Assembly (NCBI RefSeq): GCF_963506605.1
Contig: NC_083283.1
Coordinates: 34,782,001 to 34,846,000, forward strand
DNA length: 64,000 nt
From: Zootoca vivipara
Lineage: Eukaryota
Reading direction: 5' to 3'
Every line of letters starts with the position of its first letter. The first letter of the stretch is position 1. The position numbers were made by a program, and so were the translations under genes. Under the pieces are notes generated by a model. It searched no databases, was not told the origin of the DNA, and saw nothing but the letters and a program-made list of their open reading frames with translations. Shown one piece after another: positions 8,678-54,240 of the stretch.

Positions 8678-9790
8678 TATGCATCCCACAAACTATGAAT
8701 CTAAACAAAGCTCTTTTGTCACTGACCATTTTGGACATCGACCAGATGAAGATTGTCCATATTCTTAGTATTTAGGACATTCTCTATAACATGTATAGTT
8801 TTATATGCATTATTCTGGATGCATTTAGGTCATATACTATTAAAAATGCATCCTGCCATTTCTCTCCCAGTTTCCTAATCTTCATTTACCCATCTCCTGC
8901 CACTTACTAATCTCTTCCTCAGTGGTGCCTCATCCTCTCCCAGCTAGAAAAACAGTAAAACTATTAAATATAGCTACACAGGGAGAGATTATGTAATTAT
9001 GTAAAACTGTAGCACGGTTCAGGTGAATACATTATTTTCACGGAATATTTTACAGAGGAGGTCAGTTCTCCAGAGCATAGCAAACGACCAAGTACTGTAC
9101 AAACTTTACATCAGATAACACTTTTAAGGGATAGTCCTTTTGTATTTGCCTTCTCCCTGACTCCTTCCAGTTACAGAGCCTGCAACTATAAACAACCAAA
9201 GGTAGTATTTGAAATTATAATGACTGGTGCTTTGTGGAATGGCATCAGTAGGTACTTTCAGATTATCCACAATCTCTGAGCAGTGTGATATTCCAGGGGT
9301 CCAGGCACTTACCCGGGGTTTGTGTTTCCTTTAGAAATGAGGCAGAGTGGAATCTGTGGTGTCTTTATGGTCTATTTACACATATTTACAACCTGAGCCT
9401 GTGATGAAGGGGCTCACAGCATTACACTCCAAGAGGTTCTTGGATGCCAGTAGAAATCAAATGGTGCTCTGTCCCTCTGCCCAGCTTGCCTGCCTTTAAC
9501 AGACTGCCACTTTTCTCTCCATCTCACATCCCAGCAAACTGCAATTCTAAAAACAACTCTCCTTCCAAGGCCCTTGCCTTTCTAACTTATACTGAGCTGA
9601 GGTAGGAGCCTCTTCCATTTGCCCTCTGGCACAAAGCCAATTCTTTTGCCCCCTAGCAATTCATCTTTAGCAGGCAAAATGGTTCCTGGCTTGAATTTTA
9701 ACATGCTAAATCCAGTGTCTGGTACCCAGGAATTGGAAGGGAAATCCAGGCACCCCCAAAACTCATAACAATATTTACTAGTGAGAAAGC

Positions 9791-9960
9791 ACTAGGAGAA
9801 GGGGACGACAGAGGACAAGATGGTTGGACAGTGTTCTCGAAGCTACAAACATGAGTTTGACCAAACTGCGGGAGGCAGTGCAAGACAGGAGTGCCTGGCG
9901 TGCTATGGTCCATGGGGTCACGAAGAGTCGGACACAACTAAACGACTAAACAACAACAAC
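9791..9960 (+). mobile_element. Bov-B (RTE) LINE 3' fragment
   Basis: GGGGTCACGAAGAGTCGGACACAACTAAACGACTAAAC(AAC)n tail; 11-bp TSD AGTGAGAAAGC at 9780-9790 and 9961-9971. Confidence 0.95.
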
Positions 9961-10639
9961 AGTGAGAAAGCCACATTGAAACATAGTGAGATTTTTCTTC
10001 TGTGCCAATATGGATAGCATTTACTGTTTTAAGATGCCATTTTGGACCATCAGAAATTGCCCAATCTCCTTTATGAAACAGTTACCATACGATATCTTTT
10101 CCTCCTTTCACTCCTGTTCACCCTGTTGCTAATTACTTTTCTTTTAAGAACTGTTTTTGAGAGAAGTCTGTCTCCCACTGCTTCCTTCACTCTGGTGTCT
10201 TGCCCATTTGGAAAAGATCACAGTACACACCACGAAGTAATAAAGATTAATACTTTTCTCAAGGCCACAGGGATCCACCATGGGAATATTAGAATTAAAA
10301 TGTCTGTATGCATCCAGCAGTTCTTTGGGTCAAGGAAAGAGGAAAACAGAAGTAGAGTCATTAAATGATTTTTTTATAATGTCAGGTTATGTAAACAAGA
10401 GAGGACTTCCCTTGAGCTCTGTAAGGTAAACGAAACAGGTTGTAACCAAGAACGCTCTGGGGAGGGGGCAAAGCTGCATTGGGAGTGTTAAGGACCAGCT
10501 TAGCATCAGTCACAGAGGTATCATTGAGTGTGTGCCTCCCCCAAAATAGTAAAGGCTGCTCTTAATACCTAAAGAAAAAGGTTAAGCACTGTTTGGAGGC
10601 AACATTCATCATTGTCATCATGCTTATTTGTATGCCATG

Positions 10640-11440: not shown

Positions 11441-11750
11441 GGTAAAGGTAAAGGTACCCCTGACCATTAGGTCCAATCGCGGATGACTCTAGGGTTGCGG
11501 CGCTCACCTCGCTCTATAGGCTGAGGGAGCTGGCGTTTGTCGTGGACAGCTTCCGGGTCATGTGGCCAGCATGACTAAGCCACTTCTGGCAAACCAGAGC
11601 AGCACATGGAAACGCTGTTTACCTTCCCGCTGGAGCGGTACCTATTTATCTACTTGCACTTTGATGTGCTTTCGAACTGCTAGGTTGGCAGGAGCAGGGA
11701 CCGAACAACGGGAGCTCACCCGTCGTGGGGATTCGAACCGCCGACCTTCT
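11441..11750 (-). mobile_element. Sauria SINE (Squam1), 5'-truncated
   Basis: GGTAAAGGTAAAGG tail, GGTACCTATTTATCTACTTGCAC core, B-box GGTTCGAATCC on the minus strand. Confidence 0.9.
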
Positions 11751-13865: not shown

Positions 13866-14787
13866 TCATTCCTTCAGTAGCACCTTAAAGACCAACTAAG
13901 TTTTTATTTTGGTATGAGCTTTCGTGTGCATGCACACTTCTTCAGATACAGTGAAATGGAAGTTTCCAGGCACTTATGTAGAGAAGGGGTGGGGAGGGGT
14001 GGGGATGGGGAGGGGGGATCACTCAGAAGGGTGGTGGAAATGGGTGATTGACTGACTGATAGCTGTTGATGACCGCAAACGACTGCAAATGGTTTTGCAT
14101 GAAAAAGCAAGGGTTGAGATGGCTGAAGATCGCTTATCATGTATAATGAGATAAGAACCCGATATCTCTGTTCAAACCAGGTCCCTCCATGGTTCTGAGC
14201 TTGGTGATAAGTTGCAATTCAGCAACTTCTCTTTCCAGTCTATTTCTGAAATTCTTTTGTAGTAAGACAGCTACTTTGAGATCTTGTATAGAATGTCCTG
14301 GGAGATTGAAGTGTTCTCCTACTGGTTTTTCTGTCTTCTGGTTCCTGATGTCAGATTTATGTCCATTTATCCTTTGGCGTAGGGTTTGGCCTGTTTGTCC
14401 AATATAGAGAGCTGAAGGGCACTGTTGGCATTTGATGGCATACACAATGTTAGAGGATGAGCAATTAAATAGTCCTGAGATGGTATGTTGGATGTTGTTG
14501 GGGCCAGTAATGGTGTTGTCTGGGTGTATGTGGCAGCAAAGTTGGCATCTGGGTTTATTGCAGGCTCTGGTACCAGTGTCCATGTTAAGTCTGGTGGTTG
14601 TATTATTGTGGGTGAGGAGTTGTTTAAGATTGGGTGGCTGTCTGTAGGCAATGAAAGGTCTTCCTCCCAGAGCTTGAGAAAGGGAGCGGTCATTGTCCAG
14701 GAGAGGCTGTAGATCTCTGATGATGCGTTGTACTGTTTTAGCTGGTTTCATGCAAAACCAGCTCCCAAGCTAAAACAGTACAACGCA
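13866..14787 (-). mobile_element. Penelope-like element, 5'-truncated: GIY-YIG endonuclease region plus pseudo-LTR
   Basis: ORF 14137-14751 contains CNKPRCQLC and NIVYAIKCQQCPSALYIGQTGQTLRQRINGH (GIY-YIG); typical pLTR TAGCACCTTAAAGACCAACTAAG. Confidence 0.93.
13912..13949 (-). ncRNA. Minimal type I hammerhead ribozyme motif in Penelope pLTR
   Basis: Minus-strand RNA GUAU-CUGAAGA-A-GUGUG(CAUG)CACAC-GAAA-GC-UC-AUAC: conserved CUGANGA, GAAA and UH boxes, stem I GUAU/AUAC, stem II, palindromic minimal stem III AGCU. Confidence 0.8.
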
Positions 14788-15930
14788 ACTCAATGAAAAC
14801 CATCAGCTGTGCGTCAATGGGGATTGGAATAGGGCAGGTCACAGAGAAGATGTGTTTCCTTCTCGTGACTTGTTCCCATAAGTCAGCATAAAGACATTGC
14901 TTCTCTTGGTGAGAAGGTAAAGACTATGCATTCATAGCAATAATTGCTTTTCTAATTCATTGCAAATATTTGAGAGCAGCAGTTCTAACACAAATAAATA
15001 GGTCAGCCTTCTGCTGAGAGAAGGTTCAACGTAACTACTAACAAAGGCATTGCTTTAAAGTCTGTGTTAAGGTCTCAGAAACCCTGAAAGGGCAGAAAAC
15101 TGTTTGGAAACAGTTTGTGTCCCCCACGGCCCCACCCTGTATTCAATATTCATCTATTGTTTTGCCTTCTGCTCTGTCAAAAACGATATTTAAAACATCG
15201 TGCCGGAAACTAAACCATTGTGGGTTGTTTTATCCTTCATGATGCCATGAATTATTCATATTATTTGATTTAATGTAATCACTTTCTTTCCTGTATTAAG
15301 TTTCTGTGAATGGTCTCCTATGCAGCTACAATTTAAAGGAACTTTATAGACAGTACTAGTGGGGAAAGCAACTGGCATTAACTGACAGTGAATTAGGCTT
15401 AGTGTCAGTTTGGGTGGGTGGGGACACAAACTTTGTAATTTAATTCTTAATCATATGTATATCCTGATTCCAATGGATGTCTCATGGTGTGTGCATGTCA
15501 GGGGCGAGTTGACATTGAAAACAACTGGAGACATAGGTAAATGAAAGTCAGACAGAGTTATGGAACCCACTGAGGATGATGCAAACACTCAACTGCAGAA
15601 CAGTATTTTGTCCTATGTTCATTCAGCACCAGGAATTATTTTGAACACCCATTAGCTCGCTCTTTCTTTCTTTCTTTCTTTGGAAGAATCAAGAAGTTAG
15701 GAAAGGGGGGAGGACTTGCTAATTGCACCAATTTTGTGCAAATTCACCCTTTTAGCAGATACAATAATTTAACCTGCTCTAAGTTGTTCGCGACTGGACT
15801 TAATTGTCAGCGGTCCCTTTACCTTTAAAGCTGAGTAAAGGACACTGGTTTCCTGTTTTAAAAGATTTGTACCTCTGATATTTCAGCTAGCAGAACTCAC
15901 AAGAATTAATGTTTTGGATATGTAGTTATT

Positions 15931-17081
15931 TCCCAGAAGTGCAAGCTGGATTTCAAAGGAACAGAGGAACTAGAGACCAAATTGCAAACATGCACTGGAT
16001 TATGGAGAAAGCTAGAGAGTTCCAGAAAAACATCTACTTCTGCTTCATTGACTATGCAAAAGCCTTTGACTGTGTCGACCACAGCAAACTATGGCAAGTT
16101 CTTAAAGAAATGGGAGTGCCTGATCACCTCATCTGTCTCCTGAGAAATCTCTATGTGGGACAAGAAGCTACAGTTAGAACTGGATATGGAACAACTGATT
16201 GGTTCAAAATTGGGAAAGGAGTATGACAAGGCTGTATATTGTCTCCCTGCTTATTTAACTTATATGCAGAATTCATCATGCGAAAGGCTGGGCTGGGTGA
16301 ATCCCAAACTGGAATTAAGATTGCCAGAAGAAATATCAACAACCTCAGATATGCAGATGACACAACCTTGATGGCAGAAAGTGAGGAGGAATCAAAGAAC
16401 CTTTTAATAAGGGTGAAAGAGGTCCCATCACCTCCTGGTCCCATCACCTCCTGGCAAATAGAAGGGGAAGAAATGGAGGCAGTGAGAGATTTTACCTTCT
16501 TGGGTTCCATGATCACTGCAGATGGTGACAGCAGTCACGCAATTAAAAGACACCTGCTTCTTGGGAGGAAAGCAATGGCAAACCTAGACAGCATCTTAAA
16601 AAGCAGAGACATCACCTTGCCGACAAAGGTCCGTATAGTTAAAGCTATGGTTTTCCCAGTAGTGATGTATGGAAGTGAGAGCTGGACCATAAAGAAGGCT
16701 GATCGCCAAATAATTGATGCTTTTGAATTATGGTGCTGGAGGAGACTCTTGAGAGTCCCATGGACTGCAAGAAGATCAAACCTATCCATTCTTAAGGAAA
16801 TCAGCCCTGAGTGCTCCCTGGAAGGACAGATCGTGAAGCTGAGGCTCCAATACTTTGGCCACCTCATGAGAAGAGAAGAATCCTTGGAAAAGACCCTGAT
16901 GTTGGGAAAGATTGAGGGCACAAGGAGAAGGGGACGACAGGACGAGATGGTTGGACAGTGTTCTTGAAGCCACGAACAAGAGTTTGACCAAACTGCGGCA
17001 GGCAGTGGAAGACAGGAGTGCCTGGCGTGCTATGGTCCATGGGGTCATGAAGAGTCGGACATGACTAAACAACAACAACAA
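15931..17081 (+). mobile_element. Bov-B (RTE) LINE, 5'-truncated, RT region to tail
   Basis: QAGFQRNRGTRDQI...FIDYAKAFDCVDH...NNLRYADDTTL RT motifs; stop near 16224; (AAC)n tail. Confidence 0.97.
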
Positions 17082-17454: not shown

Positions 17455-18035
17455 GATATTTATTTGTTGTGTTTATATCCCACCTTTGTCTCCATGGAGC
17501 TAAAGATGGTATCCATGGTTCTCCCCCTCCTCGTTGATTCCCCAAAATAATCCTTTTGGGGTAAGTTAGGCTGAGAGGTAAGTTAGGCTGAGAGGTAGTG
17601 ACTGCCCCAAAGTCACCCAGTGGCCAAGTGGGGAGATGAACTCTGGTTTCTCAGGTCCTAGTGTGACCTTCAAGGGACGCAGGTGGCACTGTGGCGTAAA
17701 CCACAGAGCCTAGGGCTTTCCGATCGGTAGGTCAGTGGTTCGAATCCCCGCAACGGGGTGAGCTCCCGTTGCTCGGTCCCTGCTCCTGTCAACCTAGCAG
17801 TTCAAAAGCATGTCAAAGTGCAAGTAGATAAAAAGGTACCGCTCCGGCTGGAAGGTAAATGGTGTTTCCATGCACTGCTCTGGTTTCACCAGAAGCGGCT
17901 TAGTCATGCTGGCTACAAACGTCCGCTCCCTCAGCCAGTAAAGCGAGATGAGCGGGCAAGCCCAGAGTCGTTCGCGACTGGAGTTAACAGTTAGGGGTCC
18001 TTTACCTTTTTTTTACTGTGACATTCTAACCACTT
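17455..18035 (-). mobile_element. Squam2-type SINE interrupted by a Sauria SINE
   Basis: TTTATATCCCACCTTT tail, AGGCTGAGAGG..GACTGCCCCAAAGTCACCCAG core; resumes ...CTAACCACT after 18014. Confidence 0.65.
17674..18014 (+). mobile_element. Sauria SINE (Squam1), near full length
   Basis: GGGACGCAGGTGGCACTGTGG head, GGTTCGAATCCCC B-box, GGGGTCCTTTACCTTT tail. Confidence 0.93.
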
Positions 18036-24514: not shown

Positions 24515-24781
24515 CCAACTAAGTTTGTCATTGGTATGAGCTTTCATGTGCATGCACACTTCTTCAGATACACTGAAACAGAAGTCACCAGACCCTTATA
24601 TATAGTGAGAGGGTGGGGAGGGGTATTACTCAGAAGGGTGGTGGGAATGGGTGATTGGCTGATAGGTGTGGTAAACCTGTTGAAGACTGTTAATGACTGC
24701 AATTGGTCTTACAGGAAAAAGCAAGGGGTGAGATGGCTAAAAATAGCTTTATCGTGTATAATGAGATAAGAATCCAATGTC
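24515..24781 (-). mobile_element. Penelope-like element pLTR fragment (related subfamily)
   Basis: Colinear with 13892-14165 (CCAACTAAG...ACTCAGAAGGGTGGTG...GTATAATGAGATAAGAA). Confidence 0.9.
24534..24571 (-). ncRNA. Second minimal hammerhead ribozyme motif
   Basis: Identical to 13912-13949 except one C-to-U change at the base of stem II (G-U wobble). Confidence 0.7.
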
Positions 24782-36192: not shown

Positions 36193-36920
36193 CATGGGCG
36201 TAGGCAGGGGGGCAGGAGGGGGCAATTGCCCCCCCCTAGAAGCAGGGCCACTGGCCAGCCTGCCCGGTGCCGTCTCCCTTCTCCCTGGCTGGCTGTGGGG
36301 CGGGCGGCGGGAAAGCACCAGAGCCGCGCAAAGCGTTTGGCTGGCTTTCCCTCCCTCCGCCCCACAGCCAGCAAGGGAGAAGGGAGACGTCCCTTCTAGC
36401 CGGCTGGCTGTGGGGCGGGCGGAGGGAAAGCCAGGCAACCGCTTTGCGCGGCTCTGGGGCTTTCCCTCCACCTGCCCCAGCGATTGCAGAGGGGGAGGAG
36501 GGGATCGGAGCAGCTGATTTCGGGCTGATCCTGGCTCCCCCTCGTCCCTTCCGATCGTGGAGGGGGAGGAGGGAGTCGGAGCAGCCCGATTTCGGGCTGA
36601 TCCTGGCTCCCCCTCGTCCCTTCCGATCGTGGAGGGGGAGGAGGGAGTCGGAGCAGCCCGATTTCGGGCTGATCCTGGCTCCCCCTCGTCCCTTCCTATC
36701 GCGGAGGGGGAGGAGGGAGTCGGAGCAGCCCGATTTCGGGCTGACCCTGGCTCCCCCTCGTCCCTTCCTATCGCAGAGGGGGAGGAGGGAGTCGGAGCAG
36801 CCCGATTTCGGGCTGCTCCGATGTGGCCCCGCCCCCGCCCCTTGGCCCCGCCCCTTGCTCCCCGCCCCTTGCTCCCCGCCCCTTGCCCCCCCCCTGATTT
36901 TCATCCTGGCTACGCCCCTG
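36193..36920. mobile_element. hAT MITE (728 bp) carrying a 72-bp tandem array
   Basis: TIRs CATGGGCGTAGGCAGG / CCTGGCTACGCCCCTG; perfect 8-bp TSD CTAGGAGA at 36185-36192 and 36921-36928. Confidence 0.92.
36481..36820. repeat. 72-bp GC-rich minisatellite, about 4.5 units
   Basis: GCAGCCCGATTTCGGGCTG recurs at 36581, 36653, 36725 and 36797 (period 72), with a variant at 36510. Confidence 0.95.
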
Positions 36921-37315: not shown

Positions 37316-37741
37316 CAAGGGCGTACCCACCACGGGGCAAGTTAGGCAGGTGCCCTACTCTAGAAGCAGGGCTGGTGGGCTCCGCCTCCGCCCACCAGCC
37401 CTGCTTCTAGGGAGGGGCACAGCCCGGCGGAGCGCGAGTTCGCCGTTCCCGCCCGCCGCGCTGCGCCCTCCTTCCAGCTCCCCGTCGCGCCCTCTGGCAA
37501 GGCCAAGCGCGGCGGGGAACCAGAGGGCCCGGCGCGGCGGGCGGGAACGCTGAACTCGCGCTCCGCTGGGCTGGGCTCCGCCTCCGCCCACCAGCCCTGC
37601 TTCTAGGGAGGGGCACAGCCCGGCGGAGCGCGAGTTCAGCGTTCCTGCCCGCCGTTCCCGCCCACTTTGTGGCCCCTCCCCTTCCGTGCCTTGGCCCCTC
37701 CCCTTGCCCCCCCCCTAGTTTTGATCCTGGGTACGCCCATG
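37316..37741. mobile_element. hAT MITE (426 bp) with fold-back interior
   Basis: TIRs CAAGGGCGTACCCA / TGGGTACGCCCATG; perfect 8-bp TSD TTTCTGAG at 37308-37315 and 37742-37749. Confidence 0.92.
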
Positions 37742-44258: not shown

Positions 44259-44636
44259 GGGGATGCGAGTGGCGCTGTGGTCTAAATCACTGAGTCTCTT
44301 GGGCTTGCTGATCATAAGGTCAACAGTTTGAATCCATGTGACAGGGTGAGCTCCCGTTGCTCTGTCCCAGCTTCTGCCAACCTAGCAGTTCAAAAGCATG
44401 TAGTTCTAGTAGATAAATAGGTACCACTGTGGCGGGAAGGTAAATTGCATTTCCGTGCACTTTGGTTTTTGTCACAGTGTTCCATTGCACCAGAAGCAGT
44501 TTGGTCATGCTGGCCACATGACCTGGAAAGCTGTCTGTGGACAAACACCAGCTCCCTTGGCCTGAAAGCAAGATGAGCGCTGCACCCCATAGTTACCTTT
44601 GACTGAACTGTCCAGGGCTCTTTTACCTTTACCTTT
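44259..44636 (+). mobile_element. Sauria SINE (Squam1), full length, older
   Basis: GGGATGCGAGTGGCGCTGTGGTCTAAA head to TTTACCTTTACCTTT tail. Confidence 0.9.
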
Positions 44637-53722: not shown

Positions 53723-54240
53723 GTTGTTGTTGTTGTTCAGTCATTTAATTGTGTCCGACTCTTCGTGACCCCATGGACCAGAGCACGCCAGGCACTCCTG
53801 TCTTCCACTGCCTCCTGCAGTTTGGTCAGACTCGTGTTCGTAGCTTCGAGAACACTGTCCAACCATCTCATCCTCTGTCGTCCCCTTCTCCTTGTGCCCT
53901 CCATCTTTCCCAACATCAGGGTCTTTTCCAGGGAGTCTTCTCTTCTCATGAGGTGGCCAAAGTATTGGAGCCTCAGCTTCAGGATCTGTCCTTCCAGTGA
54001 GCACTCAGGGCTGATTTCCTTCAGAATGGATAGGTTTGATCTTCTTGCAGTCCATGGGACTCTCCTCCAGCACCATAATTCAAAAGCATCAATTCTTCGG
54101 CGATCAGCCTTCTTTATGGTCCAGCTCTCACTTCCATACATCACGTCTGGGAAAACCATAGCTTTAACTATATGGACCTTTGTTGGCAAGGTGATGTCTC
54201 TGCTTTTTAAGATGCTGTCTGGGTTTGTCATTGCTTTTTT
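53723..54240 (-). mobile_element. Bov-B LINE 3' fragment
   Basis: ORF DSILKSRDITLPTKV...DAFELWCWRR; 11-bp TSD TGTAGGAAATT at 53712-53722 and 54241-54251. Confidence 0.97.

What the first reader, a model, noticed from the sequence alone, without database searches (positions are those of the whole stretch)
13912..13949. Intact minimal hammerhead ribozyme in a Penelope terminal repeat
Seen on the minus strand: GUAU CUGAAGA A GUGUG-CAUG-CACAC GAAA GC UC^AUAC. All catalytic-core boxes are present. Stem I is GUAU/AUAC, stem II is the perfect palindrome GUGUGCAUGCACAC, and stem III is reduced to the palindrome AGCU. Predicted cleavage lies between 13916 and 13915. Established: Penelope-like elements carry minimal type I hammerheads thought to cleave as dimers. 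Inference: this copy, next to an unbroken 204-codon GIY-YIG frame, is young and possibly active. The class is known; this lacertid instance may be unannotated.
Basis: partly seen in the sequence, partly recalled or inferred. Interest (0 to 1): 0.7.

Follow-up and report, generated by a model that had tools for sequence, protein, structure and literature searches.

The report
Ribozyme at a retrotransposon's first base
This is a known kind of tiny self-cleaving RNA motif, carried by a very young reptile jumping gene with about 16,000 matching copies; the copies' ends suggest the motif starts at the RNA's capped first base and is usually uncut when copied into the genome.

Summary
The motif is real (13912-13949, minus strand): a minimal type I hammerhead of the published Penelope-like element (PLE) kind, closest to a published turtle motif, with two compensatory pair changes. 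The copy is young (1 mismatch in 876 nt) but not autonomous: 5'-truncated, no reverse transcriptase, no second hammerhead nearby, no RNA reads on its flanks.

The family is the useful part. G000 holds 15,948 exact hammerhead copies and intact 3,030-nt units with a 901-aa ORF of Neptune-type architecture. 3,805 of the 15,948 have a purine instead of the element's T just before stem I, mostly an extra G, 31 nt downstream of a TATA-like box. That is the signature of a capped transcription start. At the cleavage site only 103 of 19,361 show the same break (neighbouring positions: 78 and 50). Inserts therefore come from RNA that was uncut or seamlessly rejoined.

Copies that had crossed the ORF ran past the start site in 40 of 44 cases, and one insert holds ten hammerheads in identical 293-nt units. 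Both fit circular templates, but repeated strand transfer or long read-through RNA are not excluded. Known class; the mechanism is now testable.

The parts
13912..13949 (-). Minimal type I hammerhead: stem I 4 bp, CUGAAGA, extra A, stem II 5 bp with CAUG loop, GAAA, palindromic AGCU, cleavage position after C13916
   Evidence: matches the consensus and turtle motif in Fig. S3 of PMC4209133
13949..13949 (-). Inferred transcription start (+1 G), the first base of stem I; family 5' ends cluster here and up to 3 nt upstream, often with an extra G
13973..13980 (-). TATA-like box TACATAAG, 31 nt before the inferred start (TATATAAG in an older subfamily)
   Evidence: function inferred
14047..14051 (-). 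CCAAT-like box (TCAAT here, CCAAT in the older subfamily), followed by a C-rich tract
   Evidence: motif name recalled, function untested
13868..14136 (-). Pseudo-LTR / 3' UTR, ending 56 nt before the next unit's ATG; no tail and no target-site duplication seen
14137..14743 (-). Codons 701-901 and stop of the 901-aa PLE ORF: Cys linker and GIY-YIG endonuclease, no RT; one private change at 14195
14746..14760 (+). 15-nt templated filler copied from the element's own 3' UTR; supplies the fortuitous ATG
14759..14787 (+). 29-nt inverted 5' piece of the element (unit positions 2091-2119)
24515..24781 (-). Second, older-subfamily pLTR fragment with the same hammerhead, C11.1 changed to U

Best explanation
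This is a minimal type I hammerhead motif in the pseudo-LTR of a very young Penelope-like retrotransposon with Neptune-type protein architecture, carried here by a 5'-truncated passive copy; in the family it likely forms the first 38 bases of a capped transcript, is likely uncut in most RNAs that get reverse-transcribed, and would cleave only slowly as a dimer to release unit-length RNA that likely circularises. Shown: motif, family, truncation, copy counts, and the positions of copy ends. Inferred, with odds: (1) a TATA-type pLTR promoter starts capped RNA at the first base of stem I (about 0.85). (2) RT starts internally about 45 or about 8 nt before the ATG and, on linear capped RNA, runs about 95-130 nt to the cap and copies it as an extra G, giving thousands of hammerhead-only inserts (about 0.85). 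(3) AGCU cannot close stem III in one molecule, so cleavage needs two hammerheads, and perhaps the element's protein (about 0.75, from the literature). (4) Cleavage in two successive pLTRs plus ligation gives seamless circles that template longer-than-unit copies and exact arrays (about 0.4). The window's copy is a product of such a run, not a source.
For: Identity: consensus match and two compensatory pair changes against the turtle motif; 1 of 38 columns variable among 4 subfamily majority sequences versus 8 of 42 downstream and 62 of 91 upstream (p 0.03 against downstream). Cap-type start: 3,805 of 15,948 copies have a purine at -138 (78 G and 22 A in the 100 listed, my count). 45 of 49 fetched are true ends, 34 with G (my reading), against 17 of 39 G at control ends (p 0.004) and 23% G in flanks. 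G is untemplated in 3 of 6 cases with a visible target duplication. The extra G is read as cap copying for L1 in PMC11702581 (passage). TATA-like box at -31 from the start in 3 of 4 subfamilies. Uncut templates: 103 of 19,361 at the cleavage site, versus 78 and 50 at neighbours; 74 of 74 young copies show no scar there. Longer-than-unit templates: 40 of 44 pass the start after the ORF, versus 2 of 18 for products begun at +25 to +328 (p 2e-9). A 293-nt array with ten hammerheads, identical units and a shared private deletion ends at an RT start site.
Against: No cleavage was observed: no pile of read ends at the site in 3 RNA runs (about 6% of each read; signal dominated by short copies inside host RNAs). 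Predicted homodimer energy favours a 14-bp stem II duplex (-28.0 kcal/mol) over an AGCU-bridged form (-14.9, evaluated without stem I). Within-genome covariation is nearly absent (3 double changes at one stem II pair, 2 compensatory). The downstream 42 nt are also fairly conserved, so other constraints may act. A sample from the first 1.8 Mb of C1 had only 2 of 31 purine ends, so the rate varies by region. For the anole Poseidon element, hammerhead mutants did not affect insertion in vitro (PMC11167929). Circles are not distinguished from strand transfer or long read-through RNA by these data.
Confidence: 0.6

Rival explanations
1. Strong-stop-like strand transfer: RT always starts near the 5' end, reaches the cap, and jumps by homology to the 3' pLTR of the same RNA. 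Repeating this gives long copies and arrays, with no need for cleavage.
For: RT does jump at the cap: in many loci G+(-137) is joined directly after sequence ending at +25 to +256. The anole protein needs the first 172 nt of the ORF and uses unprocessed RNA (PMC11167929).
Against: 0 of 74 young copies that run across the start site carry a G scar at -138, though trimming could remove it; 1 older copy does (L297). It does not explain why only N7 varies in the motif.
Confidence: 0.3
2. Long copies come from read-through transcripts of multi-unit tandem arrays or of host genes; the hammerhead only trims such RNAs now and then.
For: Tandem arrays with 3,030-nt period exist. 49 of 149 junctions were not listed, and long arrays may be collapsed in the assembly.
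Against: At most two full-unit junctions per array among the 100 listed, whereas a 40:4 pass-to-stop ratio would need arrays of about ten units if junctions are used equally (my estimate).
Confidence: 0.2
3. The motif is kept as a structure or promoter-proximal element (protein binding, translation control), not for catalysis.
For: It begins at the inferred +1. Minimal PLE hammerheads cleave poorly in vitro (PMC4209133), and 8 of 9 Xenopus dimers did not cleave (10.64898/2026.07.22.740005).
Against: Variation follows catalytic rules (N7 free; stems covary with turtle). The anole motif cleaves with protein and shows C3/G8 rescue.
Confidence: 0.12
4. Chance match of short motifs around a palindrome.
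For: Loose core pattern at chance level; folding z -0.44; no Rfam hit.
Against: 0 of 200 shuffles match the strict descriptor; position in a PLE pLTR; turtle counterpart with compensatory changes.
Confidence: 0.01

Closest known systems
Minimal PLE hammerheads (Cervera and de la Pena 2014, PMC4209133), especially the Chrysemys picta bellii motif in Fig. S3
   Same: Core CUGAAGAA, G10.1-C11.1, 4-bp stem I, 5-bp stem II, AGCU, upstream UUUCACU and A-rich downstream. The closest named protein relatives are turtle ORFs at 61-73% identity.
   Different: Stem I pair U-A versus C-G, stem II pair U-A versus G-C, palindromic loop, C17 versus U17. No Anolis or lizard term found in the 2 supplement files searched (one further file was not searchable). 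The parts I read do not map the motif to a capped start.
Poseidon element of Anolis carolinensis (Frangieh et al. 2024, PMC11167929)
   Same: Two internal RT start sites about 40 nt apart that define the tail; unprocessed RNA as template; no RNA ends at the cleavage site.
   Different: There the hammerhead overlaps the start codon and RT starts inside the ORF. Here the motif lies 100-137 nt upstream of the ATG, RT starts in the 5' UTR, and the protein has the Cys linker of the Neptune/Nematis type.
Non-LTR retrozymes (10.64898/2026.07.22.740005)
   Same: Short tandem arrays with one type I hammerhead per unit, derived from pLTRs; three such arrays (293, 598 and 263 nt) occur in this family.
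   Different: Here the arrays are nearly identical to a recently mobile parent and end at RT start sites. The window's copy itself is a monomer, not a retrozyme.

Membership tests
Minimal type I hammerhead of PLEs | Core CUGANGA, extra nucleotide, G10.1-C11.1, GAAA, UH | tested here: met
Minimal type I hammerhead of PLEs | Short stem I and palindromic, non-closable stem III | tested here: met
   GUAU/AUAC and AGCU
Minimal type I hammerhead of PLEs | Location in the pLTR | tested here: met
   one per 3,030-nt unit, upstream of the ATG
Minimal type I hammerhead of PLEs | Core conservation and covariation | tested here: met
   only N7 varies among 4 subfamilies; 2 compensatory pairs versus turtle; little covariation within the genome
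Minimal type I hammerhead of PLEs | Self-cleavage as a dimer | not testable with these tools
   no end pile in RNA-seq; cofold prefers a stem II duplex
EN+ Penelope-like element | Single ORF with RT and C-terminal GIY-YIG; tandem and inverted copies; optional 30-40 nt tail | tested here: met
   901-aa ORF; tail on one arm in 76 of 91 short inverted pairs
Neptune clade | CX2-5CxxC linker between RT and EN (shared with Nematis; PMC8557442) | tested here: met
   CNKPRCQLC in the translation
Neptune clade | RT phylogeny with reference Neptune and Nematis elements | not tested
   no clade-named reference sequences among the 120 hits listed
Autonomous PLE copy | Full ORF downstream of a pLTR | tested here: not met
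   the window copy holds only codons 701-901
Non-LTR retrozyme | Two or more tandem units with a hammerhead each | tested here: not met
   solo copy; the next motif is 10.6 kb away and altered; met by L346, L041-L044 and L047 elsewhere

The most novel reading that the evidence does not exclude
The genome preserves a record of the PLE cycle: the hammerhead starts at the capped +1 of the transcript. Uncut capped RNA yields thousands of ribozyme-only inserts, while paired hammerheads excise and circularise unit-length RNA that RT copies as a rolling circle, producing long copies and newborn retrozyme arrays. This would be in vivo evidence for the proposed circular intermediate.
Probability: 0.35. 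Interest if true: 0.75.

Novelty: new member of a known kind. Interest (0 to 1): 0.5.

Why it matters
The motif class has been known since 2014, but its role in PLEs is described as unclear (PMC8557442, passage). This family is recently mobile, has intact ORFs and about 16,000 exact motif copies, so copy ends work as a record of the RNA templates. They place the start site on the ribozyme's first base, show that inserts do not begin at the cleavage site, and reveal two template classes. That turns 'what is the hammerhead for' into a test between circles and strand transfer. The single copy in the window matters little by itself.

Tried and rejected
Rfam search: no hammerhead hit. Folding z-scores: uninformative. 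Search for other hammerhead families with shorter stem II: 95 matches, nearly all deletion variants of this family by eye. Covariation at one stem II pair: 3 matches only. Peak of 5' ends at the cleavage site: about 65 estimated ends versus 35 and 28 at neighbours; 4 of the 19 ends inspected are explained by stem I microhomology; at most a weak excess, not accepted as cleavage evidence. Transcription of this locus: zero flank depth in 3 RNA runs, and none of 296 reads at 14195 carries its private base; tissue and individual are unknown, so this is weak. No indexed holder was on record as RNA: not used as evidence. Back-splicing as origin of the 598-nt array: the junction is a 4-nt microhomology, and I saw no splice signals there by eye. 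Lunse et al. (dimer cleavage) was not held; seen only as cited in PMC6765202 (passages). Literature searches listed no paper on this lizard family or on a cap or start site at a PLE hammerhead; most subscription journals and Repbase/Dfam were not searched. Earlier findings of this scan: none.

Full report
Observation. A strict minimal-hammerhead descriptor matches once in the window and in none of 200 shuffles. The loose core pattern is at chance level, the fold energy is ordinary and Rfam gives no hammerhead hit. The identification rests on context and comparison. Fig. S3 of PMC4209133 (main text parts 1-2 and supplement file 2, part 2 read) lists a turtle motif with the same core and flanks, and compensatory changes in one stem I pair and one stem II pair.

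The element. A search of G000 scored 40 of 1,216 candidates; the 39 other loci match at 99-100%. Tandem loci give a 3,030-nt unit with one hammerhead and a 901-aa ORF of RT, Cys linker and GIY-YIG domain. The linker marks Neptune or Nematis type (PMC8557442, passages); no tree was built. The closest named proteins are from turtles. Positions below are relative to the ATG: the motif spans -137 to -100 and cleavage falls at -104/-103.

This copy. It covers unit positions 2100-2975 (13868-14743) with one mismatch, followed by a 15-nt templated filler and a 29-nt inverted piece. It has no RT, and the ATG of the 204-codon frame lies in the filler. No target duplication was seen. In run X17 both flank contigs continue into other sequence, which I read as absence of the insertion there. 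Three RNA runs give zero depth on the flanks. It is young but passive.

Constraint on the motif. Of 408 pLTR copies in fetched loci, 87 reached far enough upstream; 71 fell into four subfamilies (38, 20, 9, 4) and 16 singletons were dropped. Among the four majority sequences, 1 of 38 hammerhead columns varies, namely N7; 8 of 42 vary downstream and 62 of 91 upstream, gaps included. Within-genome covariation is scarce.

Where copies begin. G000 has 15,948 exact matches to -137..-106. 3,805 have a purine instead of T at -138. Of 49 such copies fetched, I read 45 as true 5' ends, 34 with G. Control ends at three other positions had G in 17 of 39. Where a target duplication was visible the G was untemplated in 3 of 6 and ambiguous in 3. 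In junction loci, 22 of 33 ends had G. For L1, an extra G at full-length 5' junctions is read as cap copying (PMC11702581, one passage). A TATA-like box lies 31 nt upstream in 3 of 4 subfamilies; TATA and Inr motifs in a pLTR were noted for a rotifer PLE (PMC3846280, passages), whereas Drosophila Penelope has an internal TATA-less promoter (PMC2377424, passages). I infer a capped start at the first base of stem I, with some starts up to 3 nt upstream. Against this: 31 copies from the first 1.8 Mb of C1 had only 2 purine ends.

The cleavage site. 103 of 19,361 copies have a purine at -104, against 78 at -102 and 50 at -106. True ends were 19 of 30, 9 of 20 and 11 of 20, giving about 65, 35 and 28, against about 3,500 at the start site. 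74 of 74 young copies show no scar at the site. RNA-seq lists no pile of ends there, but the signal is dominated by short copies inside host transcripts. Templates were thus uncut or seamlessly rejoined, as reported for the anole Poseidon element (PMC11167929, parts 1-2 read).

Where copies end. 3' ends cluster near -45 and -8, the two-site tail pattern. 76 of 91 short inverted pairs have one long and one short arm; a one-sided tail is already described.

Two template classes. I examined the 100 listed of 149 pLTR-ORF junctions and sorted them by eye. Of 47 with at least 500 nt of ORF downstream, 3 ended before the start site, 4 at -137 to -145, and 40 ran beyond -170. Of 53 with short downstream sequence, I dropped 15 array junctions and 3 duplicates; of the 35 left, 17 ended early, 16 stopped at -134 to -139 and 2 passed (p 2e-9). 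Many of the short class are followed directly by G+(-137), which indicates template jumps at the cap. L346 holds ten hammerheads at 293-nt spacing with identical units and a shared deletion, and ends at -42. Such products need templates continuous across the start site: circles made by paired hammerheads (proposed in PMC4209133), repeated strand transfer, or long read-through RNA. No G scar at -138 in 74 young read-through copies and the N7-only variation lean mildly to circles. The cofold result, weak activity in the literature and dispensability in vitro lean against.

Verdict. The feature is a new member of a known kind, and this copy is not active. The family-wide end mapping was not found in the searches listed under Tried and rejected and makes an open question testable. 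Figures of the cited papers, one supplement file of PMC4209133 and the bioRxiv supplements could not be seen and may bear on novelty. Interest 0.5.

Noticed in passing
L346 (G000:C3:91.909-91.912 Mb), L041-L044, L047: Retrozyme-like tandem arrays (293 nt with ten hammerheads, 598 nt, 263 nt) derived from the young family, each ending at an RT start site.
   Followed up: partly
L058-L070 and L335-L383 (many loci): Direct joins of element sequence ending at +25 to +256 to a following copy that starts with G at -137, consistent with template jumping at the cap.
   Followed up: partly
L034, L036-L040, L003, L017: Long head-to-head insertions in which one arm ends near -45 and the other near -8, as in the short pairs.
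   Followed up: partly
window 15891-17073: Fragments of another non-LTR RT with a YADD motif, with related pieces at 9789-9961 and 53725-54237; RTE/Bov-B-like (name recalled).
   Followed up: no
window 11591-11721, 17710-17886, 44298-44457: Dispersed SINE-like repeat, Sauria SINE-like (name recalled).
   Followed up: no
window 36296-36875 and 37376-37663: 72-nt tandem repeat with an adjacent 90-nt inverted repeat, and a GC-rich direct and inverted repeat cluster.
   Followed up: no
L362-L365 (G000:C5:3.48-4.02 Mb): Four identical insertion junctions about 110-210 kb apart, suggesting a segmental tandem duplication.
   Followed up: no
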